Positions 1 to 64,000 of a stretch of DNA of 64,000 nt are shown piece after piece (within the stretch, counting starts at the first letter, position 1; each line of letters starts with the position of its first letter). The stretch comes from a virus. Its lineage: Duplodnaviria; Heunggongvirae; Uroviricota; Caudoviricetes. The notes below the pieces were generated by a model, which did not search any database, had not been told where the DNA came from, and saw nothing but the letters and a program-made list of their open reading frames with translations. Location: the IMG/VR virus record IMGVR_UViG_3300027375_000001; one strand, 5' to 3'. The translations under genes were made by a program, and so were the position numbers.

Positions 1-960
1 TTGTGGATGATCAAAGATGATACACTTTACCATTTTGACAAAGACGGTAGTATTTTACTAAAAAGAACATACCCGTATATATCCTCCGGGCCTAAAAAAT
101 TAGCAATAACTCGTGAACTCACCAATTCTGGTTGGAAGGATTTCATTTGGGTTATGGACAAACAATCGATCATAAAATATTCTTCGTCTGGCAGATTTGA
201 GAAAATAATTAAACCAACCGATTATTTCAGCACAGGCAATTATCCAGGCAGAGATCGTAACAAATTGAATTTGACTTTCGCAAAATATTGCACAAAATAT
301 AATTTTTATCGCGATGCCAAATTGTTAAATCCTGGCTTGGATGACAAAAATTATATTACAGCCAATTTCAAAATTACAAACGGAACATCCGTATCGGCAA
401 AAGAACTTATAGCACCTACAAACGCATTGTCGAGAGGATGGCACCACTTAGCACTTACTTTTGATTCTGCTAATGGAGTCGCCAGACTATATGTCGATGG
501 GCAAACAATAGATAGTATTTCATTTGCGGAGGGCCAATACATGTTGGATTATACTAATAAAAATACATTTTATATTGGCAACACAAACGATAGTCACGAT
601 ACAAAGGAATATACATGGCTTTTAGATAAAAAACCAACTATGGTGGGCAAGATCGATGACATTAGAGTTTATTCCTGCGCACTATCTGAAAGAGATGTCT
701 TGGTGTTATCTAGAAAGAAACTTAAATTCACCCCAGTCGAATTTAACGTCACGGCACCGACAAGGCAATATATAGAGACGATTGATAGGTTCAATACGCA
801 CAGGACTCCTGGGTTTAAGTCAAATATTTTCAACATACGCATTTTGAATAGCGACTTGGATAGTGAAGATTTAAAAGAATCAATTGAGGACGCTATTTGC
901 AAGGCATTGACGAAGATAACACCCGTTGGTGCTAAACTAAACAAAATCGTGTGGGAATAA
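1..960 (+). CDS. LamG/concanavalin-A-like lectin domain protein (5'-partial, runs off window start)
   Basis: ORF is open from base 1 with no start codon. Jelly-roll-like segment (ALTFDSANGVARLYVDGQ...IGNTND...GKIDDIRVYSCALSERDV) is typical of LamG-type domains in phage fibres. Confidence 0.45.
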   Translation: MWMIKDDTLYHFDKDGSILLKRTYPYISSGPKKLAITRELTNSGWKDFIWVMDKQSIIKYSSSGRFEKIIKPTDYFSTGNYPGRDRNKLNLTFAKYCTKYNFYRDAKLLNPGLDDKNYITANFKITNGTSVSAKELIAPTNALSRGWHHLALTFDSANGVARLYVDGQTIDSISFAEGQYMLDYTNKNTFYIGNTNDSHDTKEYTWLLDKKPTMVGKIDDIRVYSCALSERDVLVLSRKKLKFTPVEFNVTAPTRQYIETIDRFNTHRTPGFKSNIFNIRILNSDLDSEDLKESIEDAICKALTKITPVGAKLNKIVWE

Positions 961-36769: not shown

Positions 36770-36783
36770 ACATATGTTGAAAT

Positions 36784-37651: not shown

Positions 37652-37660
37652 ATAAATTAG

Positions 37661-37732: not shown

Positions 37733-37737
37733 GTGTG

Positions 37738-37811: not shown

Positions 37812-37820
37812 AAAAGAAAT

Positions 37821-37894
37821 TGGAAGTCCCTGATGGAATTGAACCATCATAGTCGGAATCAAAATCCGATGCATTACCATTATGCTAAAGGACC
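37821..37894 (-). tRNA. tRNA-Gln(UUG)
   Basis: D arm gcat-aatggta-atgc, anticodon arm tcgga-UUUUGAU-tccga, T arm gatgg-ttcaatt-ccatc, CCA encoded. Confidence 0.65.
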
Positions 37895-37902
37895 ATATAA
37901 AA

Positions 37903-37995
37903 TGGCGGGTAGCTGAGGACTTGCACCCCAACCTAGGTTCGCTAGATCAATCCGCTTTCGAGACGGTTGCAGTACGCTTGTCTGCTTAACTACCC
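37903..37995 (-). tRNA. tRNA-Ser(CGA), class II, T-loop UGCAAGU
   Basis: gggtagt/gctaccc acceptor, anticodon loop CUCGAAA, long extra arm (gatctagcgaacctagg), T arm tgggg-tgcaagt-cctca, G73, CCA encoded. Confidence 0.5.
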
Positions 37996-37997
37996 AT

Positions 37998-38074
37998 TGG
38001 TGCGGCTGACAGGATTCGAACCTGCGACAATATCCTTGGCAAGGATGCGCTCTACCAAATTGAGCTACAACCGC
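37998..38074 (-). tRNA. tRNA-Gly(GCC)
   Basis: gcggttg/cagccgc acceptor, D arm agctcaatttggtagagc, anticodon loop UUGCCAA, T arm gcagg-ttcgaat-cctgt, CCA encoded. Confidence 0.65.
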
Positions 38075-38080
38075 ATAAGA

Positions 38081-38154
38081 TGGAGGCCTATCCCAGAATT
38101 GAGCTGGGGACTATTCATTACGAGTAAATTGTTTTACCACTAAACTAATAGGCC
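38081..38154 (-). tRNA. tRNA-Thr(CGU)
   Basis: ggcctat/ataggcc acceptor, anticodon arm attta-CUCGUAA-tgaat, T arm cccag-ctcaatt-ctggg, CCA encoded. Confidence 0.5.
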
Positions 38155-38159
38155 GAAAT

Positions 38160-38235
38160 TGGCACGTGCTGTCAGAATCGAACTGACCCAGTCGGATTTG
38201 GAGTCCAACTCGCCTGCCTTGGGACATTAGCACGT
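38160..38235 (-). tRNA. tRNA-Trp(CCA)
   Basis: Perfect acgtgct/agcacgt acceptor, anticodon arm ttgga-CUCCAAA-tccga, T arm gtcag-ttcgatt-ctgac, CCA encoded. Confidence 0.65.
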
Positions 38236-38244
38236 AAAAAGAAA

Positions 38245-38318
38245 TGGAGGTCCTGTCCGGAGTCGAACCGGAATCAACGCATTACAAGTGCGTCGTTTTA
38301 CCATTAAACTAAAAGACC
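38245..38318 (-). tRNA. tRNA-Thr(UGU)
   Basis: D arm gttt-aatggtaa-aac, anticodon arm acgca-CUUGUAA-tgcgt, T arm tccgg-ttcgact-ccgga, CCA encoded. Confidence 0.65.
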
Positions 38319-38462
38319 GAAATGTGCTCCACTAAGAGTTAGCTATTTTCCAGTGAGCACTGTTATCATCTACAAACATGCACAAGCCCATGTTTGACCA
38401 GAGCCATATAAGGGATAGCTTGTGAGGATTTCCTCATAAAGTGTGGATAGTTGATGCTTAAT

Positions 38463-38555
38463 TGGCGGGTAACTGAGGACTTGCACCCCAACCTAGGATC
38501 ACTAGATCAATCCGCTTTCAAGGCGGTTACAGCGCGCTTGTCTGTTTAGCTACCC
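38463..38555 (-). tRNA. tRNA-Ser(UGA), class II, T-loop UGCAAGU
   Basis: Paralogous to the 37903 gene. Anticodon loop CUUGAAA, long extra arm, CCA encoded. Confidence 0.5.
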
Positions 38556-38561
38556 ATAAAT

Positions 38562-38637
38562 TGGCGGTGCTGACGGGATTCGAACCCGCATCATCTATCG
38601 TGACAGGATAGCAATTTGCCGATTAAAATACAACACC
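38562..38637 (-). tRNA. tRNA-Asp(GUC)
   Basis: ggtgttg/cagcacc acceptor, anticodon arm ctatc-CUGUCAC-gatag, T arm gcggg-ttcgaat-cccgt, G73, CCA encoded. Confidence 0.65.
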
Positions 38638-38643
38638 AGAAAG

Positions 38644-38736
38644 TGGCGGATGAATGAGGACTTGCACCCCAACCTAGGATCACTAGATCAATCTGTCTTC
38701 CAAACAGATGCAGCACGCTTGTCTGCTTAATCATCC
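38644..38736 (-). tRNA. tRNA-Ser(GGA), class II, T-loop UGCAAGU
   Basis: Anticodon arm tctgt-UUGGAAG-acaga, long extra arm (gatctagtgatcctagg), CCA encoded. Confidence 0.5.
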
Positions 38737-38740
38737 AAAT

Positions 38741-38817
38741 TGGTGGAGATGGTGGGAATCGAACCCACAACAGTCTGATTGCAAATCAGTCTCGCTAGCC
38801 TTAGTACATGCACCCCC
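38741..38817 (-). tRNA. tRNA-Ala(UGC)
   Basis: gggggtg/catctcc acceptor with G3.U70, anticodon loop UUUGCAA, T arm gtggg-ttcgatt-cccac, CCA encoded. The D arm is irregular. Confidence 0.5.
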
Positions 38818-43831: not shown

Positions 43832-44800
43832 TTGATTGCAGCACAACCCACATCCATATTAAAGAGTAATCAAACACCAAACACAAACAAACAATATATG
43901 AAGCTTAGTTATCAAAAGTCCAGCATGGTTCGTGTTTCTGAAATCAAAATTCCTGATGTGTTCTTCCGTCGGATGCACACAGGCATTGAAGTGGTTGATA
44001 AACTTTTTGGTGGTGAGGGAATCCTTCCGGGCATGGTATTCACTCTATCCGCCGCCGCAGGAGTTGGTAAGACTACGCTGATGCTTCAAATCTGCGAGGC
44101 TCTCGCCGATCAAGGATATGAAGCGGGATACGTGACTGGTGAAGAAACTACCACGATGCTCGCGTACAGCTGCCGCCGGTTGGGTTTGAAATCCGTTCAA
44201 GTATGTCACGAGACGGATGTGGAAGAAATCTGCAAGATGATGAAGCAAATGGACTTTCTGATCGTCGACAGCTTTGCTACACTTCAATTCGATGATAAGC
44301 GCATGGGAGATGCGGACGCAATTAACAAAATCGTCTCCGCAGCCAAAGAGAGCGAATGTGCGGTTGGTATCATCCTCCATCAAACCAAAAACGGAAACTT
44401 CAAAGGAAGCACTGTGATTACTCATGCGGTTGATTGTAATATCGCAATCAGCATCAATGATGAATCTGATGATCATCGAGACATCCAAACCTCGAAAAAC
44501 CGTTATGGTACCCCGTATAGTGGTGTGTTGAGAATCAGTCCAAGCGGATACGATTTGTCTGCGCTCGCTGATATGTCTGCATTCACTACCGCGTCCGCGA
44601 AATCGAAAAAATCACGCAAGGAAGACCAGATCCTTTCTATGAAGGAACCGCCGAACATTACGATCGATCGCGTGGTTCAAGAACTGAATGTCAGCGAAGC
44701 ATATGCTCGGCAGATGCTTTACAAGCTCAATAAGGAAAACAAACTCGTGAAGATCGGTTCGGGTTCGGATGCTGTTTGGAAATTCCCAATCAACAAATAA
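43832..44800 (+). CDS. RecA-superfamily ATPase, RadA/Sms-like, with a C-terminal winged-helix region
   Basis: HTGIEVVDKLFGGEGILPGMVFTLSAAAGVGKTTLMLQ matches the RadA T-G-I-x-ELD..LGGG...G + Walker A block. Confidence 0.5.
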   Translation: MIAAQPTSILKSNQTPNTNKQYMKLSYQKSSMVRVSEIKIPDVFFRRMHTGIEVVDKLFGGEGILPGMVFTLSAAAGVGKTTLMLQICEALADQGYEAGYVTGEETTTMLAYSCRRLGLKSVQVCHETDVEEICKMMKQMDFLIVDSFATLQFDDKRMGDADAINKIVSAAKESECAVGIILHQTKNGNFKGSTVITHAVDCNIAISINDESDDHRDIQTSKNRYGTPYSGVLRISPSGYDLSALADMSAFTTASAKSKKSRKEDQILSMKEPPNITIDRVVQELNVSEAYARQMLYKLNKENKLVKIGSGSDAVWKFPINK

Positions 44801-45437: not shown

Positions 45438-45708
45438 ATAATGTCACAATGACACAAGATCCTCGCCTCCAACAAATTCGCAAGATCAGAAAACATATCG
45501 ACAGTGACTCATTCCTGAAGTATGGTTTCTGGTATACAATACCAGACGATTACAAAATCTATAGTCAAAAAGAACAACTCTTATTCAACACATATCTGAA
45601 GTGTCGATTCTATATTCAGTATCTGTTTCGGAATATATGCAATCCATCTGCTTGGTGATGTATGATAAAAACTGTTGATTCACACATAACCCTATTTTAT
45701 ATTAATTC

Positions 45709-49852: not shown

Positions 49853-50189
49853 TGATTTCGGAAATGCAACGATATATGTCTATCATGAAGATGGGCACTA
49901 TGCCGAACGAAGTTTCTCCAGAAGAAGCTACGACACATTAACAGCACGATATGATAGGTTCCAAGGCTGGGTGTCTCCATATAGAGATATTGTATATTGG
50001 AATCGAGTCTATCGCATAGGCAATAACAGACCAACAGTGGTGCCCGACCATATCGTCGTATGGAAACAAGGGGATGCAACTGAGTATAAATACAACAAAG
50101 TTGTCATGTCGTTTGTCAATAAAATTTTGTCATGGATCCCACGAAAATGGGCAGTTCGACATAAAAGATGGCGCTGGCTTAAATGCTAA
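49839..50189 (+). CDS. hypothetical protein
   Basis: 116-aa ORF. Confidence 0.3.
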   Translation: MNPLNDFGNATIYVYHEDGHYAERSFSRRSYDTLTARYDRFQGWVSPYRDIVYWNRVYRIGNNRPTVVPDHIVVWKQGDATEYKYNKVVMSFVNKILSWIPRKWAVRHKRWRWLKC

Positions 50190-50229
50190 AATAGTTGATA
50201 CACATCACACCTCGAGCTATATTAACTAC

Positions 50230-51255
50230 ATGAAGCTCGCCTCTATTGAAACCATCGCTGCTGTCAAACATCATCCCAATGCAGATTCGTTGGATCTCGT
50301 TGGAGTTCTAGGATATGAATGCATCACTCTTAAAGACAAATATAAGGTAGGTGATCGTGTAGTCTTTATCCAGCCCGATACTGTTCTTCCAGATAAGCCC
50401 TGGGCTGAAATCTTTAAGAAAAAGTCGTCGCGAGTCAAAGCTATCAAGCTTCGAGGCGAATGGTCGTTTGGTATTATCATGGGACTTACCGAAGTAGACT
50501 CGTTATTCGATCTTCAAAATGTCGAAGTTGGTACTGAGATTAGTTCCCATATTGGGGTATATAAGTACGACCCACCTGCTCCAACCTCTCTGGATGCTAA
50601 AGGGAATCTGCCGTATAGTCTGGTGAAGACTGACGAAGAACGATTCCAGAACCTTATCGGGTTTCTCCCGTATGGTGAAAAGGTTGATGTCACCCTGAAG
50701 ATTGATGGGCAAAGTGCTACTTACTACGCACGCAAAGATCCGTCGACCGGAGAATGGTCTACTGGTGTTACTAGTCGCAATCTAGAAATCAAACCAGAAA
50801 CTAATAACAACTATACCAAGATCGTGAAGAAATACAATATTCTCGAGAAGCTTCTTGAGTATTGCAAACGGAACGACGTATCACTTGCTCTTCGAGGTGA
50901 AATCTATGGAGGCAATATCCAAAATTTCAGCAAGAACCCACACAGCAAAGGTCCCTTGGACTTTGCCGTATTCAGTGTCTTCAATCTTAATACCCTGAAG
51001 TATGAAAAGGAAGGCGACGCTGATTACTCCCCGAACGTGGCGGCTGTATTACAAATTCCTCATGTGCCGTTTGTAAACGACAATTACACTGTTGACTTTG
51101 AACACTCTGTGAGGCCGTTGCTATCCGAAGATATGATTAACTTCTACCAAAAAGGAATCAATCAAATCGATGGCAAACCCTTTGAAGGTGTAGTAGTTCG
51201 ACACAGCAAAGGTTCGTTCAAGATCATCAATCTCGATTACGACTCAAACAAATAA
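50230..51255 (+). CDS. RNA ligase with an N-terminal tRNA-binding OB (Myf-like) domain (Rnl5/DraRnl-like architecture)
   Basis: The start was moved to Met 50230. The N-terminus KHHPNADSLDLVGVLGYECITLKDKYKVGDRVVFIQPDTVLP matches the tRNA-binding OB-fold consensus (HPNADKL..V.VDvG......IVsGA.N...GD.V.VA..Ga.LP). It is followed by the nucleotidyltransferase motif I KxDG (TLKIDGQSATYYAR). Confidence 0.5.
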   Translation: MKLASIETIAAVKHHPNADSLDLVGVLGYECITLKDKYKVGDRVVFIQPDTVLPDKPWAEIFKKKSSRVKAIKLRGEWSFGIIMGLTEVDSLFDLQNVEVGTEISSHIGVYKYDPPAPTSLDAKGNLPYSLVKTDEERFQNLIGFLPYGEKVDVTLKIDGQSATYYARKDPSTGEWSTGVTSRNLEIKPETNNNYTKIVKKYNILEKLLEYCKRNDVSLALRGEIYGGNIQNFSKNPHSKGPLDFAVFSVFNLNTLKYEKEGDADYSPNVAAVLQIPHVPFVNDNYTVDFEHSVRPLLSEDMINFYQKGINQIDGKPFEGVVVRHSKGSFKIINLDYDSNK

Positions 51256-53731: not shown

Positions 53732-53968
53732 GAATTGTGCTTAGCTAGTCGCCATGCTGTTAAGTAACAGTATATGGATTACGAAAGCATAAGCCAATTC
53801 TTAATGGAAACCTTTCATCTTACTGATTTCGAAAGAACTTGGTTGGAATCTAGATTCTCGCTGAGTGAAGACGATGAATCGATATGGTATAAAATCCTCA
53901 AGAAATATTATCTGACAAACTAAACAATATTTGATTAGATAACAACCACGAGGTATTGTATTATACAC

Positions 53969-54412: not shown

Positions 54413-54488
54413 GGCCACGTAGTCCAATGGCAGAGGCAACGGACTTAAAATCCGTAGAGTGTCGGTTCGAGTCCGACCGTGGCTACCA
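54413..54488 (+). tRNA. class I tRNA with anticodon UAA (leucine codon UUA); exactly 76 nt with CCA
   Basis: ggccacg/cgtggct acceptor (G1.U72), anticodon arm acgga-CUUAAAA-tccgt, 5-nt variable loop agagt, T arm gtcgg-ttcgagt-ccgac, A73. The acceptor is almost identical to that of the CAA tRNA at 30947. Confidence 0.6.
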
Positions 54489-56934: not shown

Positions 56935-57792
56935 ATGAATCTTATCTCAATCGAGCCAATCATCGAAGCAGTTAATAAAGTCACCAAAATCAAAGGCATT
57001 GACAATGAAGTGATCACTCAATGGCTGGTCAAGGCGGAGAAGCGCTTCTTCGAAAGTTCCGGCGAAATGTGCCGACATGAATTGCAAAACATTGTACGTA
57101 AATACAATCCAGCGAAAGGCGACGAGGATTGGAAAAAGAATGCTTATGTCGTGGTATATGATAATGGTCGCATTGATTTCCTTCTTCATGTGTGCGACTT
57201 CCTCTTGACCAAAGATGAAAAATATTTGTCGAAGCTCTACAAGAAGACTCCAGAAGATATCTACTGCAATGAGATTGAAGTCTGGGACGAGCAGATGGCT
57301 AACTCCGGGGCGTCTGTCGATAAGAATCAATTGGTCGAGGGTGTCGACTATAAGGTGATCCATGTGTTTGAAAACGGACATAAGATCATCGGTGCTCTTA
57401 CCGCAAAGGTGTGTCAATATGAGGGAGAGTCAATGGGCCACTGTGCGAAAAATGAATCGTACAAAGTCAAGCCAACTTCAATCATCAGCCTATGGGATCG
57501 AGGTAATAATCCTCACGTTACTATGGAACTCTCCCCACCATCCTCAAAGACCATTGTGCAAATCAAAGGCAAACAAAACCGGGCGCCAGTTGAAAAGTAT
57601 AAACAATATATCGTTGACTTCATCCAGAGCGAGAAATATAAGGTCACCCGTGATGGGGAGAACCTTGGAATGGTTTCTTTTGATAATGTGTACTACTTTA
57701 AAAATTCCGAAGAATTTGCGAAGGTTTACGAGACTGAAATTATTCCTCGCCAAAATGAGGCATTCGAGAAAATCAAAAAAATGATCAAGTAA
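56935..57792 (+). CDS. hypothetical protein
   Basis: 285-aa ORF. Confidence 0.3.
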   Translation: MNLISIEPIIEAVNKVTKIKGIDNEVITQWLVKAEKRFFESSGEMCRHELQNIVRKYNPAKGDEDWKKNAYVVVYDNGRIDFLLHVCDFLLTKDEKYLSKLYKKTPEDIYCNEIEVWDEQMANSGASVDKNQLVEGVDYKVIHVFENGHKIIGALTAKVCQYEGESMGHCAKNESYKVKPTSIISLWDRGNNPHVTMELSPPSSKTIVQIKGKQNRAPVEKYKQYIVDFIQSEKYKVTRDGENLGMVSFDNVYYFKNSEEFAKVYETEIIPRQNEAFEKIKKMIK

Positions 57793-58001: not shown

Positions 58002-58272
58002 GAACTACGTAGAAGATCCATTCATTTGTGATTCGATGGGCGAACCAAAAGGTCAGTGTAGCAATTGTGGGTATAAGTGGTACGACCACGATCCAGCCGT
58101 TATTCCACCCGAACCAACTGCACACGAATACGTATTAGCAAAAGCAGTAGACTATTTAGCACAGAGCAAAAGACCAAAGGAGAATTGGCCTCAGTTCCTA
58201 AACTTAGTCAAAAGTACTAATATCTTTCGAGAGTCACAAATCAAACGATGGAATGACGAATATAACGCTTGA
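57937..58272 (+). CDS. Cys-rich zinc-ribbon protein
   Basis: CDSMGEPKGQCSNCGYKWYDH suggests a Cx8CxxC zinc ribbon. It overlaps the previous small ORF. Confidence 0.3.
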   Translation: MPRKTLLSFGKSPSNTMKTNCKNYVEDPFICDSMGEPKGQCSNCGYKWYDHDPAVIPPEPTAHEYVLAKAVDYLAQSKRPKENWPQFLNLVKSTNIFRESQIKRWNDEYNA

Positions 58273-58302
58273 TGAATAGAGAGCACTGATTTATAATATA
58301 CT

Positions 58303-58932
58303 ATGGAGAAGGTTATTAACGGCAATGTAATTCTTGATGAATTGGTTCTTTTTAAATTGCCGGAATTTCTCAATGGTGCTGTAGTCAATGGGATGTTTTC
58401 ATGTATAGAAAATTATCTTTATACATTAGAGAATAGCCCAAGAGTAGTACAAACATTTGATTGTTATTCAAATAGGCTTAAATCATTAAAAGGAGGCCCC
58501 GAGAAAGTAAAAGGATCCTTTGACTGCTCTTGCAACTCTCTCACTACTCTAGAAGGAGGTCCAATAGAAGTAGGGACAGATTACGATTGTGGTATTAACT
58601 CACTCGTGTCATTAGAAGGAGCCCCCGATGAAGTAGATGGGATTTTCTATTGCAATGATAATAAACTTTCTACACTAGAGGGAGCTCCTAAGAGAGTAGG
58701 TGGGGATTTCTATTGCTATAACAACAATCTCACCTCTTTGAAAGGTGCACCGAGAATAGTAAAATATTCATTTTCATGCATTGACAATCCTCTGGTTTCA
58801 TTAGAGGGCATACCATCAGAAATTGGCGAAGATTTTTATATTCCTTTGAAATTGAAAGAATTTTTCCCAGAAACAGAAATTAGGAAACGGTCGAAAATCC
58901 GAGGGTTTGTTAAATATATTAAGGACCGGTAA
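58303..58932 (+). CDS. repeat protein family member 1 (divergent founder; about six 21-aa Cys/Leu-rich repeats)
   Basis: Repeats of the form (F/Y)xCxxNxL(T/V)(S/T)LEG(A/G)PxxV.G with the family C-terminus (EIGEDFYIPLKL...IRKRSKIRG). Confidence 0.55.
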   Translation: MEKVINGNVILDELVLFKLPEFLNGAVVNGMFSCIENYLYTLENSPRVVQTFDCYSNRLKSLKGGPEKVKGSFDCSCNSLTTLEGGPIEVGTDYDCGINSLVSLEGAPDEVDGIFYCNDNKLSTLEGAPKRVGGDFYCYNNNLTSLKGAPRIVKYSFSCIDNPLVSLEGIPSEIGEDFYIPLKLKEFFPETEIRKRSKIRGFVKYIKDR

Positions 58933-58947
58933 TCCGAATATTTTTAT

Positions 58948-59448
58948 ATGTCGAAAGAAATTCATGGAAGTGTTAATGTTAGTAAATTATACATCACTAA
59001 AATACCAGACTTCATGAAAGAGGTTATGGTTGTACATGGCATGTTCCATTGCGCTTTCAACTTCCTATCCTCTCTAGAAGGTGCTCCAGAGAAAGTAGGT
59101 CGTGGTTTCTATTGCTACAACAACTCCCTCACATCCTTAGAAGGAGCCCCAGAGAAAGTAGGTGGAAATTACAACTGTACATATAACAGTCTCAAGACCC
59201 TAAATGGAGCTCCAGCCAAAGTATATGGATATTTTGATTGCTCTTATAACTCTCTCACTTCCTTAGAAGGTGCTCCAGAGGAAGTAGGAGGAAATTTCAG
59301 TTGTATTTACAATCCTCTCATTTCACTAGAAGGATTACCTAAAAAGATTGGTGAAGATCTTTATATCTCTTCTGCTAAAGGGATCTATTTCACGAAGGAG
59401 GAAATTAGAAAAGTGTCAAATATTAAAGGCAGAATCATCAATGTATAA
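58948..59448 (+). CDS. repeat protein family member 2 (about five repeats)
   Basis: FYCYNNSLTSLEGAPEKVGGNYNC... repeats. Conserved C-terminus LEGLPKKIGEDLYISSAKGIYFTKEEIRKVSNIKGR. Confidence 0.6.
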   Translation: MSKEIHGSVNVSKLYITKIPDFMKEVMVVHGMFHCAFNFLSSLEGAPEKVGRGFYCYNNSLTSLEGAPEKVGGNYNCTYNSLKTLNGAPAKVYGYFDCSYNSLTSLEGAPEEVGGNFSCIYNPLISLEGLPKKIGEDLYISSAKGIYFTKEEIRKVSNIKGRIINV

Positions 59449-59483
59449 GTTGAGATCGACTACGCCCTAAGCTATAGTATTGT

Positions 59484-59861
59484 ATGATCAAAGTGATCCA
59501 AGGAGATGTCGATCTTAGTGATTTGTACCTCGAGAAACTACCAGATTTCTTGGAAGATGTGATAGTGAAGGGTGATTTCTTTTGCGGCAACAACTCTCTC
59601 ACATCCTTAGAAGGGGCTCCAAAGAAAGTAGGTGGTAATTTCTATTGCCCCTACAACTCTTTCACATCCTTAGAAGGAGCACCGGAGAAAGTAGGTGGTA
59701 ATTTCTTTTGCCACGACAACAAACTTACATCTTTAGAAGGTTTACCTAAAGAGATTGGTAGAATTCTTTGGATCTCTTTTGCAAAAGGGATCCATTTCAC
59801 AGAAGAGGAAATCAGAAAAGTATCCAAGATCAAAGGGAGAGTTTATATCATTGAAGAATAA
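59484..59861 (+). CDS. repeat protein family member 3 (three repeats)
   Basis: Conserved N-terminus MIKVIQGDVDLSDLYLEKLPDFLEDVIVKGDFFC and C-terminus ...ISFAKGIHFTEEEIRKVSKIKGRVYIIEE. Confidence 0.65.
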   Translation: MIKVIQGDVDLSDLYLEKLPDFLEDVIVKGDFFCGNNSLTSLEGAPKKVGGNFYCPYNSFTSLEGAPEKVGGNFFCHDNKLTSLEGLPKEIGRILWISFAKGIHFTEEEIRKVSKIKGRVYIIEE

Positions 59862-59884
59862 GACGCCCTAATCTATAGTATTGT

Positions 59885-60511
59885 ATGATCAAAGTGATTC
59901 AAGAAAACGTCGATCTTAGTGCTTTGTACCTAGACCGATTGCCAGATTTCTTGGAAGATGTGATAGTGAAGGGTAATTTCCTTTGCTACAACAACTCCCT
60001 CACATCCTTGGAAGGGGCGCCAGAGAAAGTAGAAGGTCATTTCTCTTGCACCAACAACTCCCTCACTTCTCTGAAAGGGGCGCCAAAGGAAGTAGGACGT
60101 TATTTCCATTGCTACAACAACTCTCTGACTTCCCTGAAAGGAGCACCAGAGAAAGTAGGAGGCAGTTTCCATTGCTACAACAACTCTCTCACTTCCTTGG
60201 AAGGTGCTCCAGAGAAAGTAGAAGGCGATTTCTTTTGTGACCAAAACCCTCTCACTTCTCTAGAAGGGTCACCAATGGAAGTAGGTGGTGATTTCTATTG
60301 CTACAACAACTCTCTGGCTTCCCTGAAAGGTGCTCCAGAGAAAGTAGGCGGTGATTTCTCGTGCTACAACTCTCTCACTTCCTTAGAAGGCCTACCTAAA
60401 GAGATTGGTGGAAATCTTTGGATCTCTTTTGCAAAAGGAATCTATTTCACAGAAGAGGAAATTAGAAAAGTATCTAAGATCAAAGAGTATGTTTATATCC
60501 TTGAAGAATAA
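59885..60511 (+). CDS. repeat protein family member 4 (seven to eight repeats)
   Basis: Same conserved termini with 63-nt tandem coding repeats. Confidence 0.65.
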   Translation: MIKVIQENVDLSALYLDRLPDFLEDVIVKGNFLCYNNSLTSLEGAPEKVEGHFSCTNNSLTSLKGAPKEVGRYFHCYNNSLTSLKGAPEKVGGSFHCYNNSLTSLEGAPEKVEGDFFCDQNPLTSLEGSPMEVGGDFYCYNNSLASLKGAPEKVGGDFSCYNSLTSLEGLPKEIGGNLWISFAKGIYFTEEEIRKVSKIKEYVYILEE

Positions 60512-60534
60512 GACGCCCTAAGCTATAGTATTGT

Positions 60535-61038
60535 ATGCCAAAAGTGATTCAAGAAGATGTCGATCTTAGGAGTTTGCACCTAGACCGATTGCCAGATTTT
60601 CTCGAAGATGTGATAGTAAAGGGTGAGTTCTATTGCACCAACAACTCTCTCACATCTTTGGAAGGAGCACCAATGGAAGTGGGTGGGCATTTCTATTGCT
60701 CCAACAACTCCCTCACATCCTTGGAAGGAGCACCAAAGAAAGTAGGTGGGCATTTCTTTTGCTCCAACAACTCCCTCACATCTTTGGAAGGAGCACCAGA
60801 GAAAGTAGGTGGAAGTTTCTATTGCTACAACAACTCTCTCACTTCCTTGGAAGGAGCTCCAAAGAAAGTAGGTCGTGATTTCTATTGCGACCATAACTCT
60901 CTCACTTCCTTAGAAGGCCTACCTAAAGAGATTGGTGGAAATCTTTGGATCTCTTTTGCAAAAGGAATCTATTTCACAGAAGAGGAAATTAGAAAAGTAT
61001 CTAAGATCAAAGGGAAAGTTTATATCCTTGATGCCTAA
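60535..61038 (+). CDS. repeat protein family member 5 (five repeats)
   Basis: Same conserved termini. Preceded by the 23-nt conserved upstream motif. Confidence 0.65.
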   Translation: MPKVIQEDVDLRSLHLDRLPDFLEDVIVKGEFYCTNNSLTSLEGAPMEVGGHFYCSNNSLTSLEGAPKKVGGHFFCSNNSLTSLEGAPEKVGGSFYCYNNSLTSLEGAPKKVGRDFYCDHNSLTSLEGLPKEIGGNLWISFAKGIYFTEEEIRKVSKIKGKVYILDA

Positions 61039-61061
61039 GACGCCCTAAGCTATAGTATTGT
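61039..61061 (+). promoter_or_regulatory. conserved 23-nt upstream element GACGCCCTAAGCTATAGTATTGT abutting the ATG of array paralogs
   Basis: The same 23-mer (0-2 mismatches) fills the spacers 59862-59884, 60512-60534, 61039-61061, 61503-61525, 61904-61926, 62431-62453, 62895-62917 and 63485-63507. Its TATAGTAT core resembles the short A/T-rich late-promoter boxes of T4-like phages. Related GTATAGTTAT boxes lie upstream of 56354 and 56935. Confidence 0.45.
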
Positions 61062-61502
61062 ATGCCAAAAGTGATTCAAGAAGATGTCGATCTTAGGAGT
61101 TTGCATCTCGAGAAACTACCAGATTTCTTGGAAGATGTGATAGTGAAGGGTGATTTCTATTGCCCCTACAACTCTCTCACATCCCTGAAAGGTGCTCCAA
61201 AGAAAGTAGGTGGTGATTTCTATTGCCACAACAACTCTCTCACATCCTTAGAAGGAGCACCAAAGGAAGTAGGTGGAAGTTTCTTATGCCCCTACAACTC
61301 TCTCACATCCTTAGAAGGAGCCCCAAAGGAAGTAGGTGGGTATTTCTTTTGCTCCTACAACTCTCTCACTTCCTTGGAAGGCCTACCTAAAGAGATTGGT
61401 GAAGATCTTTATATCTCCTTTGCAAAAGGAATCTATTTCACGGAAGAAGAGATAAGAAAAGTGTCAAATATTAAAGGGAGAGTTTATATCATTGAAGCCT
61501 AA
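61062..61502 (+). CDS. repeat protein family member 6 (four repeats)
   Basis: Same conserved termini. Preceded by the 23-nt conserved upstream motif. Confidence 0.65.
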   Translation: MPKVIQEDVDLRSLHLEKLPDFLEDVIVKGDFYCPYNSLTSLKGAPKKVGGDFYCHNNSLTSLEGAPKEVGGSFLCPYNSLTSLEGAPKEVGGYFFCSYNSLTSLEGLPKEIGEDLYISFAKGIYFTEEEIRKVSNIKGRVYIIEA

Positions 61503-61525
61503 GACGCCCTAATCTATAGTATTGT

Positions 61526-61903
61526 ATGCCAAAAGTGATTCAAGAAGATGTCGATCTTAGTGATTTGTACCTCGAGAAACTACCAGATTTTCTGGAAGAT
61601 GTGATAGTGAAGGGTGATTTCTTTTGCTGCAACAACTCTCTCACTTCCTTGGAAGGGGCTCCAAAGAAAGTAGGTGGTGGTTTCTATTGCGAATACAACT
61701 CTCTCACTACTCTGAAAGGGGCACCAGAGAAAGTAGGCAGTGATTTCAATTGCTCCAACAACTCTCTCACATCCTTAGAAGGTCTACCTAAAGTGATCGG
61801 TGGAGATCTTTATATCTCCTTTGCAAAAGGAATCTATTTCACAGAAGAGGAAATTAGAAAAGTATCCAAGATCAAATGGAGAGTTTATATCAGTGAAGCC
61901 TAA
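61526..61903 (+). CDS. repeat protein family member 7 (three repeats)
   Basis: Same conserved termini. Preceded by the 23-nt conserved upstream motif. Confidence 0.65.
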   Translation: MPKVIQEDVDLSDLYLEKLPDFLEDVIVKGDFFCCNNSLTSLEGAPKKVGGGFYCEYNSLTTLKGAPEKVGSDFNCSNNSLTSLEGLPKVIGGDLYISFAKGIYFTEEEIRKVSKIKWRVYISEA

Positions 61904-61926
61904 GACGCCCGAAGCTATAGTATTGT

Positions 61927-62430
61927 ATGCCAAAAGTGATCCAAGGAGATGTCAGTCTTAGTGCTTTGCACCTAGACCGATTACCAGATTTCTTGGAAGA
62001 TGTGATAGTGAAGGGTCATTTCTTTTGCCACAACAACTCTCTCGCTTCCTTGGAAGGGGCACCAGAGAAAGTAGGTGGAAGTTTCTATTGTCACAACAAC
62101 TCGCTCACATCCCTGAAAGGGTCACCAGAGAAAGTAGGTGGAAGTTTCTATTGTCACAACAACTCGCTCACATCCCTGAAAGGGTCACCAGAGAAAGTAG
62201 GCGGTGATTTCTCTTGCTACAACAACTCTCTCACATCCTTAGAAGGAGCACCAGAGAAAGTAGGTGGTAATTTCTTTTGCCACAACAACTCTCTCACTTC
62301 CTTGGAAGGAGCACCTAAAGAGATCGGCGGAAATCTTTATATCTCTTTTGCAAAAGAGATCCATTTCACAGAAGAGGAAATCAGAAAAGTATCTAAGATC
62401 AAAGGGAAAGTTTATATCCTTGATGCCTAA
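61927..62430 (+). CDS. repeat protein family member 8 (five repeats, two of them identical at the DNA level)
   Basis: Two consecutive identical 63-nt units encode HNNSLTSLKGSPEKVGGSFYC twice. Confidence 0.65.
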   Translation: MPKVIQGDVSLSALHLDRLPDFLEDVIVKGHFFCHNNSLASLEGAPEKVGGSFYCHNNSLTSLKGSPEKVGGSFYCHNNSLTSLKGSPEKVGGDFSCYNNSLTSLEGAPEKVGGNFFCHNNSLTSLEGAPKEIGGNLYISFAKEIHFTEEEIRKVSKIKGKVYILDA

Positions 62431-62453
62431 GACGCCCTAAGCTATAGTATTGT

Positions 62454-62894
62454 ATGATCAAAGCGATTCAAGGAAATGTCGATCTTAGTGATTTGTACCT
62501 CAAGAAACTACCAGATTTCTTGGAAGATGTGATAGTGAAGGGTGATTTCTCTTGCCACAACAACTCCCTCACATCCTTGGAAGGAGCACCAAAGAAAGTA
62601 GGTGGGCATTTCTTTTGCTCCAACAACTCCCTCACATCTTTGGAAGGAGCACCAGAGAAAGTAGGTGGAAGTTTCTATTGCTACAACAACTCTCTCACTT
62701 CCTTGGAAGGAGCTCCAAAGAAAGTAGGTCGTGATTTCTATTGCGACCATAACTCTCTCACTTCCTTAGAAGGCCTACCTAAAGAGATTGGTGGAAATCT
62801 TTGGATCTCTTTTGCAAAAGGAATCTATTTCACAGAAGAGGAAATTAGAAAAGTATCTAAGATCAAAGGGAAAGTTTATATCAGTGAAGCCTAA
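62454..62894 (+). CDS. repeat protein family member 9 (four repeats; mosaic with member 5)
   Basis: The repeat block GHFFCSNNSLTSLEGAPEKVGGSFYCYNNSLTSLEGAPKKVGRDFYCDHNSLTSLEGLPKEIGGNLW is identical to that of member 5. Confidence 0.65.
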   Translation: MIKAIQGNVDLSDLYLKKLPDFLEDVIVKGDFSCHNNSLTSLEGAPKKVGGHFFCSNNSLTSLEGAPEKVGGSFYCYNNSLTSLEGAPKKVGRDFYCDHNSLTSLEGLPKEIGGNLWISFAKGIYFTEEEIRKVSKIKGKVYISEA

Positions 62895-62917
62895 GACGCC
62901 CGAAGCTATAGTATTGT

Positions 62918-63484
62918 ATGCCAAAAGTGATTCAAGAAGATGTCGATCTTAGGAGTTTGTACCTCGAGAAACTACCAGATTTCTTGGAAGATGTGATAGT
63001 GAAGGGTGATTTCTCTTGCAACGACAACTCTCTCACATCTTTGGAAGGAGCACCAAAGGAAGTAGGTCGTGATTTCTATTGCTCCTACAACTCTCTCACT
63101 TCCTTGGAAGGAGCACCAGAGAAAGTAGGTGGTGATTTCTCTTGCCACAACAACTCCCTCACTTCCTTAGAAGGAGCACCAAAGGAAGTAGGTCGTGATT
63201 TCTCTTGCACCTACAACCCTCTCACATCCCTGAAAGGTGCTCCAGAGAAAGTAGGAAGTGGTTTCTATTGCCCCTACAACTCTCTCACTTCCCTGAAAGG
63301 AGCACCAGAGAAAGTAGGTGGGTATTTCTATTGCCCCTACAACCCCCTCACTTCCTTAGAAGGTTTACCTAAAGAGATTGGTGAAGATCTTTATATCTCT
63401 TTTGCAAAAGAGATCCATTTCACAGAAGAGGAAATCAGAAAAGTATCTAAGATCAAAGGGAAAGTTTATATCCTTGATGCCTAA
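62918..63484 (+). CDS. repeat protein family member 10 (six repeats)
   Basis: Same conserved termini. Confidence 0.65.
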   Translation: MPKVIQEDVDLRSLYLEKLPDFLEDVIVKGDFSCNDNSLTSLEGAPKEVGRDFYCSYNSLTSLEGAPEKVGGDFSCHNNSLTSLEGAPKEVGRDFSCTYNPLTSLKGAPEKVGSGFYCPYNSLTSLKGAPEKVGGYFYCPYNPLTSLEGLPKEIGEDLYISFAKEIHFTEEEIRKVSKIKGKVYILDA

Positions 63485-63507
63485 GACGCCCTAATCTATA
63501 GTATTGT

Positions 63508-64000
63508 ATGATCAAAGCGATTCAAGGAAATGTCGATCTTAGTGATTTGTACCTAGACCGATTGCCAGATTTCTTGGAAGATGTGATAGTGAAGGGATAT
63601 TTCTATTGCTCCTACAACTCCCTCACTTCCTTAGAAGGAGCACCAGAGAAAGTAGAGGGTCATTTCTTTTGCCACAACAACTCTCTCGCTTCCTTGGAAG
63701 GGGCACCAGAGAAAGTAGGTGGAAGTTTCTATTGTCACAACAACTCGCTCACATCCCTGAAAGGGTCACCAGAGAAAGTAGGTGGAAGTTTCTATTGTCA
63801 CAACAACTCGCTCACATCCCTGAAAGGGTCACCAGAGAAAGTAGGCGGTGATTTCTCTTGCTACAACAACTCTCTCACATCCTTAGAAGGAGCACCAGAG
63901 AAAGTAGGTGGTAATTTCTTTTGCCACAACAACTCTCTCACTTCCTTGGAAGGAGCACCTAAAGAGATCGGCGGAAATCTTTATATCTCTTTTGCAAAAG
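63508..64000 (+). CDS. repeat protein family member 11 (3'-partial; at least seven repeats, runs off the window)
   Basis: ATG at 63508 after the conserved 23-nt motif. No stop before the window end. The C-terminal half duplicates member 8's repeat block. Confidence 0.6.
   Translation, partial: MIKAIQGNVDLSDLYLDRLPDFLEDVIVKGYFYCSYNSLTSLEGAPEKVEGHFFCHNNSLASLEGAPEKVGGSFYCHNNSLTSLKGSPEKVGGSFYCHNNSLTSLKGSPEKVGGDFSCYNNSLTSLEGAPEKVGGNFFCHNNSLTSLEGAPKEIGGNLYISFAK

What the first reader, a model, noticed from the sequence alone, without database searches (positions are those of the whole stretch)
58303..64000. Array of at least 11 tandem paralogous genes with a variable copy number of a 21-aa Cys/Leu-rich repeat
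Every gene has the same N-cap (M(P/I)KVIQEDVDL.SL(Y/H)L(E/D)KLPDFLEDVIVKGDF.C), then 3-8 copies of a 63-bp unit encoding ..(F/Y)xCxNNSLTSLEGAPEKVGG.., and the same C-cap (LEGLPKEIGGNLWISFAKGIYFTEEEIRKVSKIKGKVYI). Whole repeat blocks are identical between members (5 and 9; 8 and 11), implying ongoing gene conversion or unequal crossing-over. The 21-residue periodicity with Lx.L..Px.V.G.F.C..N.L.SL suggests an LRR/FNIP-like solenoid. An expandable, recombining family at a genome end suggests a variable binding or decoy function (host range, anti-defence).
Basis: seen in the sequence. Interest (0 to 1): 0.75.

Follow-up and report, generated by a model that had tools for sequence, protein, structure and literature searches.

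The report
Recombining leucine-rich-repeat gene array in a phage
A large uncultivated phage carries 13 back-to-back copies (11 in this window) of a small leucine-rich-repeat protein whose repeat number and predicted binding surface differ between copies, so it looks like a recombining set of protein-recognition modules, but their target and function are untested.

Summary
Window 58303-64000 holds 11 same-strand paralogous genes. The last is cut by the window end, and an overlapping contig adds its end plus two more genes, giving 13. Each gene has an N-cap, 3-7 copies of a 63-bp (21-aa) unit and a C-cap. Exact blocks of 325 nt and 345 nt are shared by genes 5/9 and 8/11.

The proteins are leucine-rich-repeat (LRR) solenoids of the short bacterial type with a cysteine ladder. 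The closest solved relatives are InlJ, SspH1/2, IpaH and YopM. They are not FNIP repeats. Variation between units is concentrated at four positions on or beside the concave beta-strand.

Otherwise identical copies of this ~194-kb phage genome from other metagenome assemblies differ by in-frame unit or gene gains and losses at 59-81-nt identical sequences. Contigs often break inside the array, so "at a genome end" is an assembly effect.

A PcfJ-like gene lies 510 nt upstream of the array. In other phage contigs a homologue of it is fused to this same LRR type.

Best reading: intracellular LRR recognition modules, each possibly with its own promoter, perhaps partnering the PcfJ-like protein. The function is inferred, not shown. 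Similar arrays recur in many phage contigs and MAGs. This is a new variant of a known kind.

The parts
56935..57792 (+). PcfJ-like gene (285 aa), 510 nt upstream of the array; candidate partner of the LRR proteins
   Evidence: Pfam PF14284 at E 1.9e-6, 28.2 bits against a cutoff of 25. Homologues are fused N-terminal to the same LRR type in P0217 (E 5e-40, full length), P0183 and seven other proteins. H169, C170, D188, H194 and E198 are invariant in a 3-sequence alignment.
58269..58297 (+). sigma70-like promoter candidate ahead of gene 1 (TTGATG-17-TATAAT), ending 5 nt before the ATG
   Evidence: 10 of 12 consensus matches. A consensus match only; no expression data.
58303..58932 (+). LRR gene 1 (209 aa, 7 units), diverged caps
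58948..59448 (+). LRR gene 2 (166 aa, 5 units), diverged N-cap
59484..59861 (+). LRR gene 3 (125 aa, 3 units)
59885..60511 (+). LRR gene 4 (208 aa, 7 units, one-codon deletion in the last unit)
   Evidence: PDB sequence hits to InlJ and SspH2
60535..61038 (+). LRR gene 5 (167 aa, 5 units); the member that was modelled
61062..61502 (+). LRR gene 6 (146 aa, 4 units)
61526..61903 (+). LRR gene 7 (125 aa, 3 units)
61927..62430 (+). LRR gene 8 (167 aa, 5 units)
   Evidence: The 81-nt stretch 61984-62064 is identical to a stretch in gene 12 and is the junction of the 2171-bp deletion variant in L003 and L004.
62454..62894 (+). LRR gene 9 (146 aa, 4 units)
62918..63484 (+). LRR gene 10 (188 aa, 6 units)
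63508..64000 (+). LRR gene 11, cut by the window end (188 aa and 6 units when completed from contig L008). Genes 12 (125 aa) and 13 (170 aa) follow outside the window.
60702..61026 (+). 325-nt block in gene 5 that is exactly identical to 62558-62882 in gene 9
   Evidence: The N-cap regions of the same two genes are only 76% identical.
62558..62882 (+). 325-nt block in gene 9, identical to the gene 5 block
62012..62356 (+). 345-nt block in gene 8 that is exactly identical to 63656-64000 in gene 11
   Evidence: Flanks are 87-88% identical.
63656..64000 (+). 345-nt block in gene 11, identical to the gene 8 block. It ends exactly at the window end.
59862..59884 (+). conserved 23-nt spacer GACGCCCTAA(G/T)CTATAGTATTGT (no Shine-Dalgarno motif; TATAGT lies 5 nt before the ATG). 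The same spacer occurs at 60512-60534, 61039-61061, 61503-61525, 61904-61926, 62431-62453, 62895-62917 and 63485-63507. The 35-nt spacer 59449-59483 carries its 3' 22 nt.
   Evidence: CTATAGTATTGT occurs 9 times exactly, only at these places in the window. Six of the eight 23-nt spacers and the 35-nt spacer are called as TTGA(A/T)G/TTGAGA-17-TATAGT promoter-like sites whose -35 lies in the preceding gene's last codons.

Best explanation
The locus is a 13-gene tandem family (11 genes in the window) of small, stand-alone LRR solenoid proteins with no signal peptide, encoded by an uncultivated phage of about 194 kb.

Shown:
- Each protein is an N-cap, 3-7 units of 21 residues (V-G-G-x-F-x-C-x-x-N-S-L-T-S-L-E-G-A-P-x-x) and a C-cap.
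- The fold is predicted to be an LRR of the short bacterial type, with Cys at the inward-facing 'L6' position (a cysteine ladder as in InlJ).
- Amino-acid variation between units is concentrated at unit positions 4, 6, 8 and 9. These alternate with, or flank, the core residues F5 and C7 of the concave beta-strand, which is the usual ligand-contact face of LRRs.
- The family changes by homologous recombination between its own repeats: exact 325- and 345-nt blocks sit inside otherwise 76-88% identical genes, and near-clonal genome copies differ by in-frame losses or gains of units or of whole genes.
- A PcfJ-like gene lies 510 nt upstream, and in other phage contigs a homologue of that protein is fused to this same LRR type with the same LPDF-type N-cap.

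Inferred:
- The proteins act inside the infected cell as protein-recognition modules with different specificities.
- Every gene from gene 3 on is preceded by a sigma70-like promoter candidate whose -10 ends 5 nt before the ATG. This would mean individual transcription by host polymerase, possibly as leaderless mRNAs, and therefore early expression.
- The most likely mechanism is that the LRRs bind host (or competitor) proteins and either recruit or regulate the PcfJ-like protein as separate targeting subunits, or block their targets directly.
- Recombination keeps generating new lengths and surface combinations under selection from variable host targets.
For: Anatomy.

Fold:
- AF2 pLDDT 88.7, with one main strand per unit covering unit positions 5-8.
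- phmmer against PDB sequences finds InlJ 4e-12, SspH2 1.9e-11, SspH1, IpaH7.8 and YopM.
- NCBIfam gives partial hits to SspH2 and InlJ.

Hypervariable positions: amino-acid entropy is 1.7-2.9 bits at positions 4, 6, 8 and 9, against 1.3 bits or less elsewhere. Crude dN/dS is 8.0 at these positions and 0.13 for the 15 positions outside 2, 3, 4, 6, 8 and 9.

Recombination:
- Exact blocks and mosaic flanks.
- Variants L003/L004 (2171-bp deletion between 81-nt identical stretches, fusing genes 8 and 12), L010 (590-bp loss of gene 11 between 59-nt identical stretches), L012 (gene 5 lacks 2 units) and L009/L011 (gene 13 has 2 extra units). Flanks outside the array carry no mismatches except one short indel patch near extended coordinate 65630-65650.
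- Further chimeric members occur in other metagenomes, for example P0002, P0004, P0018, P0038 and P0059.

Promoter candidates.

PcfJ link:
- Pfam hit.
- 9 of about 146 long family representatives are PcfJ-like plus LRR fusions.
- P0183 lies on a 238.7-kb contig with terminase and tail-tube genes. P0217 lies on a contig with an AAA_25 ATPase like the window's 43832-44800.
- A DGR survey lists a PcfJ-like motif upstream of the diversified region in some target proteins (PMC5758913).

No signal peptide or hydrophobic N-terminus is visible in the sequences. pI is 4.8-7.6.
Against: - No target, expression data or phenotype exists. All function is inferred from fold, variation pattern and gene neighbourhood.
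- The PcfJ link is not general. No PcfJ-like homologue was found within about 8 kb of the analogous arrays in the other loci held at that point, and only about 6% of long relatives are fusions.
- The biochemical role of PcfJ-like domains is unknown, and there is no solved relative.
- The dN/dS contrast is crude. It is partly post hoc, recombination was ignored, and two-fold codons at conserved positions also lack synonymous change.
- The promoter sites are consensus matches that were duplicated together with the genes, so they are not independent evidence.
- The structural variants come from short-read assemblies and could partly be assembly choices.
- The AF2 model was made from a single sequence.
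Confidence: 0.45

Rival explanations
1. The LRR proteins are stand-alone inhibitors or decoys. Each binds and neutralises a different host protein, for example a defence sensor or effector, independently of the PcfJ-like gene. The array is a fixed 'genomic accordion' of anti-defence binders.
For: - The proteins are small and cytoplasmic with a hypervariable concave face.
- The array lies in a long run of small same-strand ORFs of unknown function.
- Most analogous arrays in other phage contigs have no PcfJ-like neighbour.
- Phages are reported to acquire changes through recombination under defence pressure (abstract of bioRxiv 10.1101/2022.04.14.488369 seen; that these are tandem amplifications is from my own knowledge).
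Against: There is no similarity to any known anti-defence or defence family (PADLOC, NCBIfam, PHROGs families of unknown function). This reading does not explain why the N-cap is the one found directly after the PcfJ-like domain in the fusion proteins.
Confidence: 0.25
2. The proteins are carried in the virion. They could be internal head proteins injected with the DNA, as in T4 IPI-III, or surface or adhesin decorations. The array would then diversify what the particle delivers or binds.
For: - Most of the broader family (for example P0001, P0007, P0015, P0080 and the arrays in L013, L017, L024, L034 and L057) starts with MK.LKTY..LFES or MKSYKQFIKES. This resembles the T4 capsid targeting sequence MKTYQEFIAE (PMC8442874).
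- T-even internal proteins are described as a highly diverse set of anti-restriction proteins that share only that leader (PMC3012670).
Against: - The window's 13 proteins lack that N-terminal domain entirely and start at the LRR N-cap (M[PI]KVIQEDVDL...).
- No ORF of the array or its flanks starts with a convincing CTS-like leader. A loose N-terminal pattern matched only two unrelated small ORFs.
- The proteins are acidic to neutral (pI 4.8-7.6), whereas T4 internal proteins are described as highly basic (PMC8442874).
- The promoter candidates are sigma70-like, not late-type.
- The CTS resemblance itself is untested.
Confidence: 0.1
3. The array, or its copy number and order, is an assembly artefact: expansion, collapse or chimeric joining of a smaller repeat locus by short-read assemblers.
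For: - Perfect repeats of 325 and 345 nt exceed typical read and k-mer lengths and are interleaved (genes 5..8..9..11), so alternative paths exist.
- Contigs from many assemblies break inside the array.
- The window ends exactly at a repeat boundary.
- Different assemblies give 9 genes, an array lacking gene 11, or (window plus L008) 13 genes.
Against: - Independent JGI and ENA assemblies reproduce long stretches at 100% identity: genes 1-7 in L005, genes 8-13 in L008 and genes 1-8 in L003.
- The members differ from one another at many positions, so they are not copies of one collapsed gene.
- Variant junctions lie in 59-81-nt identical stretches, shorter than the k of 141 implied by the k141 contig names.
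- Comparable arrays occur in many unrelated contigs.
Confidence: 0.05

Closest known systems
Listeria internalin J (InlJ, PDB 3BZ5), the cysteine-ladder LRR
   Same: It is the best sequence match among solved structures (E 4e-12). The repeat is 21 residues with Cys at the inward-facing position of LxxLxCxxN; the spacing can be counted in the alignment, and the PDB title names the cysteine ladder.
   Different: From my own knowledge, InlJ is a large secreted, cell-wall-anchored surface protein with a signal peptide and further domains. The phage proteins are 125-209 aa, are LRR only and have no signal peptide. The NCBIfam InlJ model scores 16.8 bits against a cutoff of 1700.
LRR domains of type III effectors IpaH, SspH1/2, SlrP and YopM
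   Different: The phage proteins have no NEL E3-ligase domain and end right after the C-cap. Their unit is 21 residues, with one extra Gly relative to SspH2 in the alignment. The candidate enzymatic partner (PcfJ-like) is N-terminal in the fused relatives and is a separate gene here.
PcfJ-like plus LRR fusion proteins on phage-like contigs (P0217, P0183, P0136, P0170, P0188, P0196, P0145, P0247, P0265)
   Same: They carry the same LRR unit. In P0183 and P0217 the LPDF-type N-cap directly follows the PcfJ-like domain. P0217 has a C-cap like the window's (FTKEDIKK against FTEEEIRK), and its PcfJ-like part matches the window's 285-aa protein over its full length (E 5e-40).
   Different: Those are one polypeptide. 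Here the PcfJ-like protein and the LRR are separate genes, and the LRR part is amplified to 13 diverged copies.
Tandem arrays of the same 21-aa LRR in other viral contigs and MAGs (L013, L017, L018, L020, L024, L034, L050, L057)
   Same: They hold 4-12 back-to-back paralogues with 2-14 units each, built from the same NxLTSLEGAPxxVGGxFxC unit.
   Different: They have other N- and C-terminal domains. Most have a roughly 40-70-aa N-terminal helical region starting MK.LK.Y..FES and a different C-terminal domain. No PcfJ-like neighbour was detected in those that were checked.
Polymorphic internal-protein loci of T-even phages
   Same: They are rapidly varying sets of small proteins in large myoviruses directed at host defence (PMC3012670). 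Relatives of this family have leader-like N-termini resembling the T4 CTS.
   Different: The window's proteins lack the leader, are not basic and have an LRR fold. IPI* has a compact fold of two beta-sheets flanked by helices (PMC3012670).
LRR repertoires of immune receptors (lamprey VLRs, plant NLR clusters)
   Same: They also show variable LRR number, variation concentrated on the concave face, and diversification by recombination among tandem or cassette copies (my own knowledge; an analogy only).
   Different: They occur in different organisms and have different LRR classes and caps. VLRs are assembled somatically. Here the variation is germline variation among paralogues and among phage genome variants.

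Membership tests
Leucine-rich repeat (LRR) superfamily, short bacterial class | Tandem 20-30-residue units with the LxxLxLxxNxL core | tested here: met
   There are 63 units of 21 aa with V1..F5.C7..N10.L12, and V1, F5, C7, L15, G17 and P19 are invariant. Pfam LRR_4 and LRRNT hits are partial (gene 5: 30.8 and 32.5 bits).
Leucine-rich repeat (LRR) superfamily, short bacterial class | Curved solenoid with one beta-strand per unit forming a parallel sheet on the concave face | tested here: met
InlJ-type cysteine-ladder internalins | 21-residue LRR with Cys replacing the core Leu | tested here: met
   C7 is present in 42 of 42 distinct units. InlJ is the best PDB sequence hit.
InlJ-type cysteine-ladder internalins | Secreted, wall-anchored internalin architecture (signal peptide, inter-repeat and anchor regions) | tested here: not met
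   The proteins are 125-209 aa with no hydrophobic N-terminus and nothing beyond the caps. The NCBIfam internalin_J model scores 16.8 bits against a cutoff of 1700.
IpaH/SspH NEL E3-ligase effectors | LRR domain joined to a C-terminal NEL catalytic domain | tested here: not met
   Only the LRR part matches (query 31-134 to SspH2 model positions 306-405 of 788; 29.9 bits against a cutoff of 1243). The proteins end about 40 aa after the last unit.
FNIP/IP22 repeat proteins | Match to the FNIP repeat model (22-aa FNIP motif) | tested here: not met
   No FNIP family appears among the Pfam hits at E<=1 for six members. One BFVD FNIP-repeat protein appears only at E 2.5.
PcfJ-like plus LRR proteins of large phages (split form) | A PcfJ-like domain followed by an LPDF-type N-cap and this LRR unit | tested here: inconclusive
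   The domain and the LRRs are both present but on separate genes 510 nt apart. The N-cap is shared with the fusions P0183 and P0217. Physical interaction was not tested.
T4-type internal head proteins | N-terminal capsid targeting sequence (MKTYQEFIAE-like) cleaved by the prohead protease | tested here: not met
   The window proteins start M[PI]K[VA]IQ[EG][DN]VDL. No array ORF starts with a CTS-like leader, and a loose pattern matched only two unrelated small ORFs. Many relatives do have such a start, but cleavage and packaging cannot be tested here.
Diversity-generating retroelement (DGR) targets | A variable region that differs between closely related genomes at adenine-templated positions, with a template repeat and a reverse transcriptase | tested here: not met
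   The same units are 100% identical between samples (L005 over 6.9 kb, L008 over 1.8 kb). Variation is between paralogous units, not between populations. The codon pattern NNT/NNC was noted. No template repeat was seen. A reverse transcriptase was not searched for across the whole genome.

The most novel reading that the evidence does not exclude
Large phages, and some uncultivated bacteria, may carry germline repertoires of interchangeable LRR recognition modules. These would diversify by unequal crossing-over and gene conversion, and would retarget a constant partner domain (here PcfJ-like, a domain that elsewhere sits in front of DGR-diversified regions) to many host proteins. That would be a viral counterpart of IpaH-type effector families or of LRR immune-receptor repertoires. 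The locus may also be expressed as a battery of leaderless, individually promoted early genes.
Probability: 0.2. Interest if true: 0.85.

Novelty: new variant of a known kind. Interest (0 to 1): 0.6.

Why it matters
LRR proteins are the classic evolvable protein-binding scaffold of eukaryotic immunity and of bacterial effectors. In phages they are only auto-annotated; I found no paper in the searchable library describing phage LRR gene arrays.

This LRR type is very large: 23,486 cluster representatives at E<=1e-3 and 2,210 at E<=1e-30. It recurs as tandem arrays in unrelated phage contigs and in MAGs.

If the modules bind host proteins, the arrays are a ready-made catalogue of phage-host protein interfaces. 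They would also be a natural example of how a virus generates binding diversity by recombination alone. The PcfJ-like link offers a first handle on a domain of unknown function that is common on plasmids and phages. The small, well-folded, cysteine-ladder LRRs with 3-7 units could also serve as designable binder scaffolds.

Tried and rejected
- FNIP repeat: no Pfam support.
- DGR-type hypermutation: this was suggested by the NNT/NNC codon pattern at the variable positions. I rejected it because the units are identical between samples and the variation is between paralogues.
- Known defence or anti-defence families: none in PADLOC. NCBIfam gave only partial LRR hits. PHROGs gave only families of unknown function.
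- Close DNA relatives among GenBank phages: none. At protein level there are only LRR hits in Vibrio phages SRILMA, TDDLMA and phiKT1024, in 642-735-kb uncultured phage records and in Lak phages. An 871-aa neighbour protein has no phage match. The papers that mention those Vibrio phages were not opened.
- PcfJ-like function: there is no PDB relative by sequence or profile. A literature search for 'PcfJ' was swamped by C. elegans pCFJ plasmids.
- PcfJ-like neighbours of the other arrays: none found by phmmer in the loci held at that point.
- Clustering the N-terminal extensions of long relatives was uninformative, because residual LRR units linked everything.
- N-cap-based scan of bacterial and archaeal genomes: no relatives. 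The LRR-core scan found many MAG loci, but whether those are cellular genes, prophages or mis-binned phage contigs was not resolved.
- A genome-wide leaderless signal is only modest: TAnnnT at -11 in 15 of 97 ORFs.
- The antisense and alternative-frame ORFs inside the array are treated as by-products of the repeat, because only the main frame has homologues and a confident fold.

Full report
**1. What is in the sequence**

From 58303 to the window end there are 11 consecutive + strand genes. Their sizes are 209, 166, 125, 208, 167, 146, 125, 167, 146 and 188 aa, plus an eleventh gene cut at 64000.

Tandem Repeats Finder finds ten arrays of period 63 with 67-88% matches. The protein lengths step by exactly 21 residues.

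Genes 3-11 share an N-cap (M[PI]K[VA]IQ..V.L..L.L..LPDFLEDVIVKG.F.C) and a C-cap (LEG[LA]PKEIG..L[WY]ISFAK.I.FTEEEIRKVS.IKG.VYI...). Genes 1 and 2 carry clearly diverged versions of both.

I count 3-7 Cys-bearing units per gene.

From gene 3 on, the genes are separated by a nearly invariant 23-nt spacer, GACGCCCTAA(G/T)CTATAGTATTGT, with no Shine-Dalgarno motif. Its 12-nt core occurs exactly nine times in the window, only at these junctions.

**2. The array continues beyond the window, and its 'end' is an assembly effect**

An exact-protein look-up found the same phage in many metagenome assemblies, as contigs of about 193.5-195 kb and as many short ones.

- Contig L008 is 100% identical to 62230-64000. 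It continues with the rest of gene 11 (188 aa), gene 12 (125 aa) and gene 13 (170 aa). At least 9 kb of unrelated small genes follow. The array therefore has 13 genes over about 6.7 kb.
- In a 193,876-bp contig (L003) the array is internal.
- Three other ~194-kb contigs begin or end inside it (L004, L009, L010), as do several short contigs.
- The 345-nt exact repeat shared by genes 8 and 11 ends exactly at window base 64000. A graph-based assembler would stop there.

I therefore read 'at a genome end' as a contig break caused by the repeats. This is an inference.

**3. What the proteins are**

Pfam gives only partial LRR_4 and LRRNT hits. PHROGs gives families of unknown function.

A single-sequence AF2 model of gene 5 is confident (pLDDT 88.7, pTM 0.85). 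It shows one main beta-strand per unit covering unit positions 5-8 (F-x-C-x), plus a terminal helix in the C-cap.

- Foldseek against the PDB gave no significant match.
- By sequence, the closest solved proteins are InlJ (4e-12), SspH2 (1.9e-11), SspH1, IpaH7.8 and YopM.

InlJ has the same 21-residue period with a Cys at the core position, the 'cysteine ladder' named in the title of PDB 3BZ5. Relative to the 20-residue SspH2 unit, the phage unit has one extra Gly (alignment).

There is no signal peptide, no membrane segment and no extra domain. pI is 4.8-7.6. The FNIP suggestion is not supported.

**4. Where the copies differ**

I compared the 42 distinct units of genes 3-13.

- V1, F5, C7, L15, G17 and P19 are invariant.
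- Positions 4, 6, 8 and 9 carry 7-10 different residues each, mostly D, N, H, Y, S, F, P and T, with entropy of 1.7-2.9 bits.
- Positions 6 and 8 alternate with the core residues F5 and C7 within the modelled strand, and positions 4 and 9 flank it. By standard LRR geometry these residues form the concave, ligand-contacting face.
- A crude pairwise estimate gives dN/dS of 8.0 at these four positions and 0.13 for the 15 positions outside 2, 3, 4, 6, 8 and 9.

The dN/dS figure has three weaknesses. The positions were partly chosen after seeing the variation, recombination was ignored, and two-fold codons at conserved positions also show almost no synonymous change. The direction of the contrast is credible; its size is not.

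**5. How the array evolves**

Genes 5 and 9 share 325 identical nucleotides, yet their N-cap regions are the least similar pair in the family (76%). Genes 8 and 11 share 345 identical nucleotides flanked by 87-88% identity. N-cap and C-cap types are combined differently in different genes. This mosaic pattern is what gene conversion or crossing-over between paralogues produces.

Across assemblies, the flanks outside the array are identical, apart from one short indel patch near extended coordinate 65630-65650. The array itself differs:

| Contig(s) | Difference from the 13-gene version |
|---|---|
| L003, L004 | Clean 2171-bp deletion between two 81-nt identical stretches (61984-62064 and the matching part of gene 12), creating a chimeric 125-aa gene and a 9-gene array |
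| L010 | Gene 11 missing (590 bp) between 59-nt identical stretches |
| L012 | Gene 5 lacks two units |
| L009, L011 | Gene 13 has two extra units (212 aa) |

Further chimeric or shortened members occur in other metagenomes, for example P0002, P0004, P0018, P0038 and P0059.

All of these changes are in frame and in register. The junction identities are shorter than the k of 141 implied by the k141 contig names, which argues against simple collapse. Only long reads or read mapping can exclude assembler choices.

**6. Expression signals**

The consensus scan calls a sigma70-like site at six of the eight 23-nt spacers and at the 35-nt spacer before gene 3 (TTGA(A/T)G or TTGAGA, 17 nt, TATAGT). 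Ahead of gene 1 it calls TTGATG-17-TATAAT. In every case the -10 ends 5 nt before the ATG. The -35 lies in the last codons of the preceding gene.

A start at or next to the A of the ATG would give leaderless mRNAs. Elsewhere in the window, Shine-Dalgarno-like motifs precede only 8 of 97 ORFs, and TAnnnT sits at -11 in 15 of 97. A few other genes (45709, 53969) have a promoter-like -10 ending 4-5 nt before the ATG.

These are pattern matches, and the array sites were copied together with the genes. Individual, early, host-polymerase transcription is therefore an inference.

**7. The neighbour that may explain the function**

The gene at 56935-57792 encodes a 285-aa PcfJ-like protein (PF14284, E 1.9e-6, above the curated cutoff).

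An exhaustive search found 23,486 cluster representatives of this LRR type at E<=1e-3. Many are long proteins with the LRR at the C-terminal end. Nine of the roughly 146 best long ones carry a homologue of the window's PcfJ-like protein in front of the LRR.

- P0217 matches it over its whole length (E 5e-40).
- In P0183 and P0217 the PcfJ-like domain is followed directly by the same 'L..LPDF....V.G.F.C' N-cap that starts the window's genes. P0217 also ends with a similar FT.E.I.K C-cap.
- P0183 lies on a 238.7-kb contig with terminase and tail-tube genes. P0217 lies on a contig with an AAA_25 ATPase like the window's 43832-44800.

What is one polypeptide in those contigs is therefore a PcfJ-like gene plus an amplified set of LRR genes here. 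Fused elsewhere and separate here is a classic indication that two proteins work together.

In a 3-sequence alignment the PcfJ-like domain has invariant His, Cys, Asp, His and Glu residues. It has no solved relative. A survey of diversity-generating retroelements lists a PcfJ-like motif upstream of the diversified region in some target proteins (PMC5758913). That would be a second case of this domain sitting in front of a variable binding module.

The link is not universal. No PcfJ-like gene was found near the other arrays I had fetched at that point.

**8. The wider picture**

Tandem arrays of the same 21-aa unit, with other caps, occur in the following:

- Unrelated viral contigs: L017 with 11 genes of 172-382 aa, L018 with 11, L024 with 9, L013 with 6 and L020 with 4.
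- Contigs binned into MAGs: Ca. Muiribacterium halophilum L057 with 12 genes, Paludibacteraceae L050 with 9, rumen and gut Alphaproteobacteria, Chlorobiaceae and Sulfurovum.

Related Vibrio phages have one such gene with eight units (SRILMA) or two units (phiKT1024).

Most of these relatives start MK.LKTY..LFES or MKSYKQFIKES. This resembles the T4 capsid targeting sequence MKTYQEFIAE (PMC8442874). T-even internal proteins are described as a diverse set of anti-restriction proteins that share only that leader (PMC3012670). This is a lead that some relatives are packaged and injected. The window's proteins lack that N-terminal region altogether.

**9. Verdict**

- The LRR and recombination parts of the interpretation are supported. 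The FNIP and genome-end parts are not. The proposed function remains open.
- The best-supported mechanism is a recombining repertoire of intracellular LRR recognition modules, possibly partnering the adjacent PcfJ-like protein. Confidence is about 0.45 overall: high for the anatomy and mode of evolution, low for the function.
- I found no paper in the searchable library describing phage LRR gene arrays.
- I rate it a new variant of a known kind, with interest 0.6.

Noticed in passing
window 30472-38817 (- strand) and 54413-54488 (+ strand): There are 28 tRNA genes in clusters on the - strand plus a tRNA-Leu(taa) on the + strand, 29 in all. This is a large tRNA complement for a phage of about 194 kb.
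   Followed up: no
window-wide; examples at 45675-45703, 53936-53964 and 58269-58297: Shine-Dalgarno-like motifs precede only 8 of 97 ORFs. The region from -10 to -6 before start codons is AT-rich, with TAnnnT at -11 in 15 of 97. Several sigma70-like -10 hexamers end 4-5 nt before an ATG. This suggests a host that does not rely on Shine-Dalgarno pairing and possibly leaderless mRNAs.
   Followed up: partly
window 63656-64000: The 345-nt exact repeat shared with gene 8 ends exactly at the last base of the window. This suggests that the source contig stopped at a repeat branch point.
   Followed up: partly
window 58303-64000, repeat units: At the hypervariable codons the third base is fixed (position 4 NNT, 6 NNT and 8 NNC in 41 of 42 units each; position 9 NNC in 39 of 42) while the first two bases vary. 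Four-fold sites elsewhere in the unit vary freely, but conserved two-fold codons (F5 TTC 42/42, N10 AAC 41/41, E16 GAA 32/32) are also fixed. This is not explained. It is not DGR-like, because the units are identical between samples.
   Followed up: partly
window 56935-57792: A PcfJ-like protein has invariant H169, C170, D188, H194 and E198 in a 3-sequence alignment and no solved relative. The domain is also reported upstream of DGR variable regions in CPR bacteria.
   Followed up: partly
L013, L017, L018, L024, L034 and L057; proteins P0001-P0127: Most relatives outside this phage begin MK.LKTY..LFES or MKSYKQFIKES, followed by an (L/I)xE motif. This resembles the T4 capsid targeting sequence MKTYQEFIAE, so they may be packaged internal proteins.
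   Followed up: partly
L029-L106 (genome-contig hits): The same 21-aa LRR unit is abundant in MAGs of rumen and gut Alphaproteobacteria, Ca. Enterousia, Ca. Muiribacterium halophilum, Chlorobiaceae, Sulfurovum and others. Many loci occur per MAG and arrays reach 12 genes. Whether these are cellular genes, prophages or mis-binned phage contigs is unresolved.
   Followed up: partly
window 986-8458 and 8394-10667: A 2490-aa ORF carries an NHL repeat, and a 757-aa ORF has a sub-threshold hit to a pectate-lyase-like adhesive domain (22.9 bits against a cutoff of 24.3). These are probably tail-fibre or host-recognition proteins. The neighbouring 871-aa protein has no match in GenBank phages.
   Followed up: no
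window 59930-60244 (-), 60580-60894 (-), 59983-60240 (+) and similar: Open frames of 55-104 aa lie on the antisense strand and in an alternative sense frame inside the repeats. They are periodic like the repeat itself and are most simply by-products of it.
   Followed up: no
window 14445-15698, 20011-24955, 33815-34951, 43832-44800 and 50074-51255: Recognisable phage functions around the array are a glycosyltransferase, both ribonucleotide reductase subunits (closest to T4-like cyanophages at 47-49% identity), an ATP-dependent DNA ligase, a KaiC/AAA_25-type ATPase and an RNA ligase. In Vibrio phage SRILMA a gene annotated as RNA ligase lies about 2.5 kb from the LRR gene; homology and synteny with the window were not tested.
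   Followed up: no
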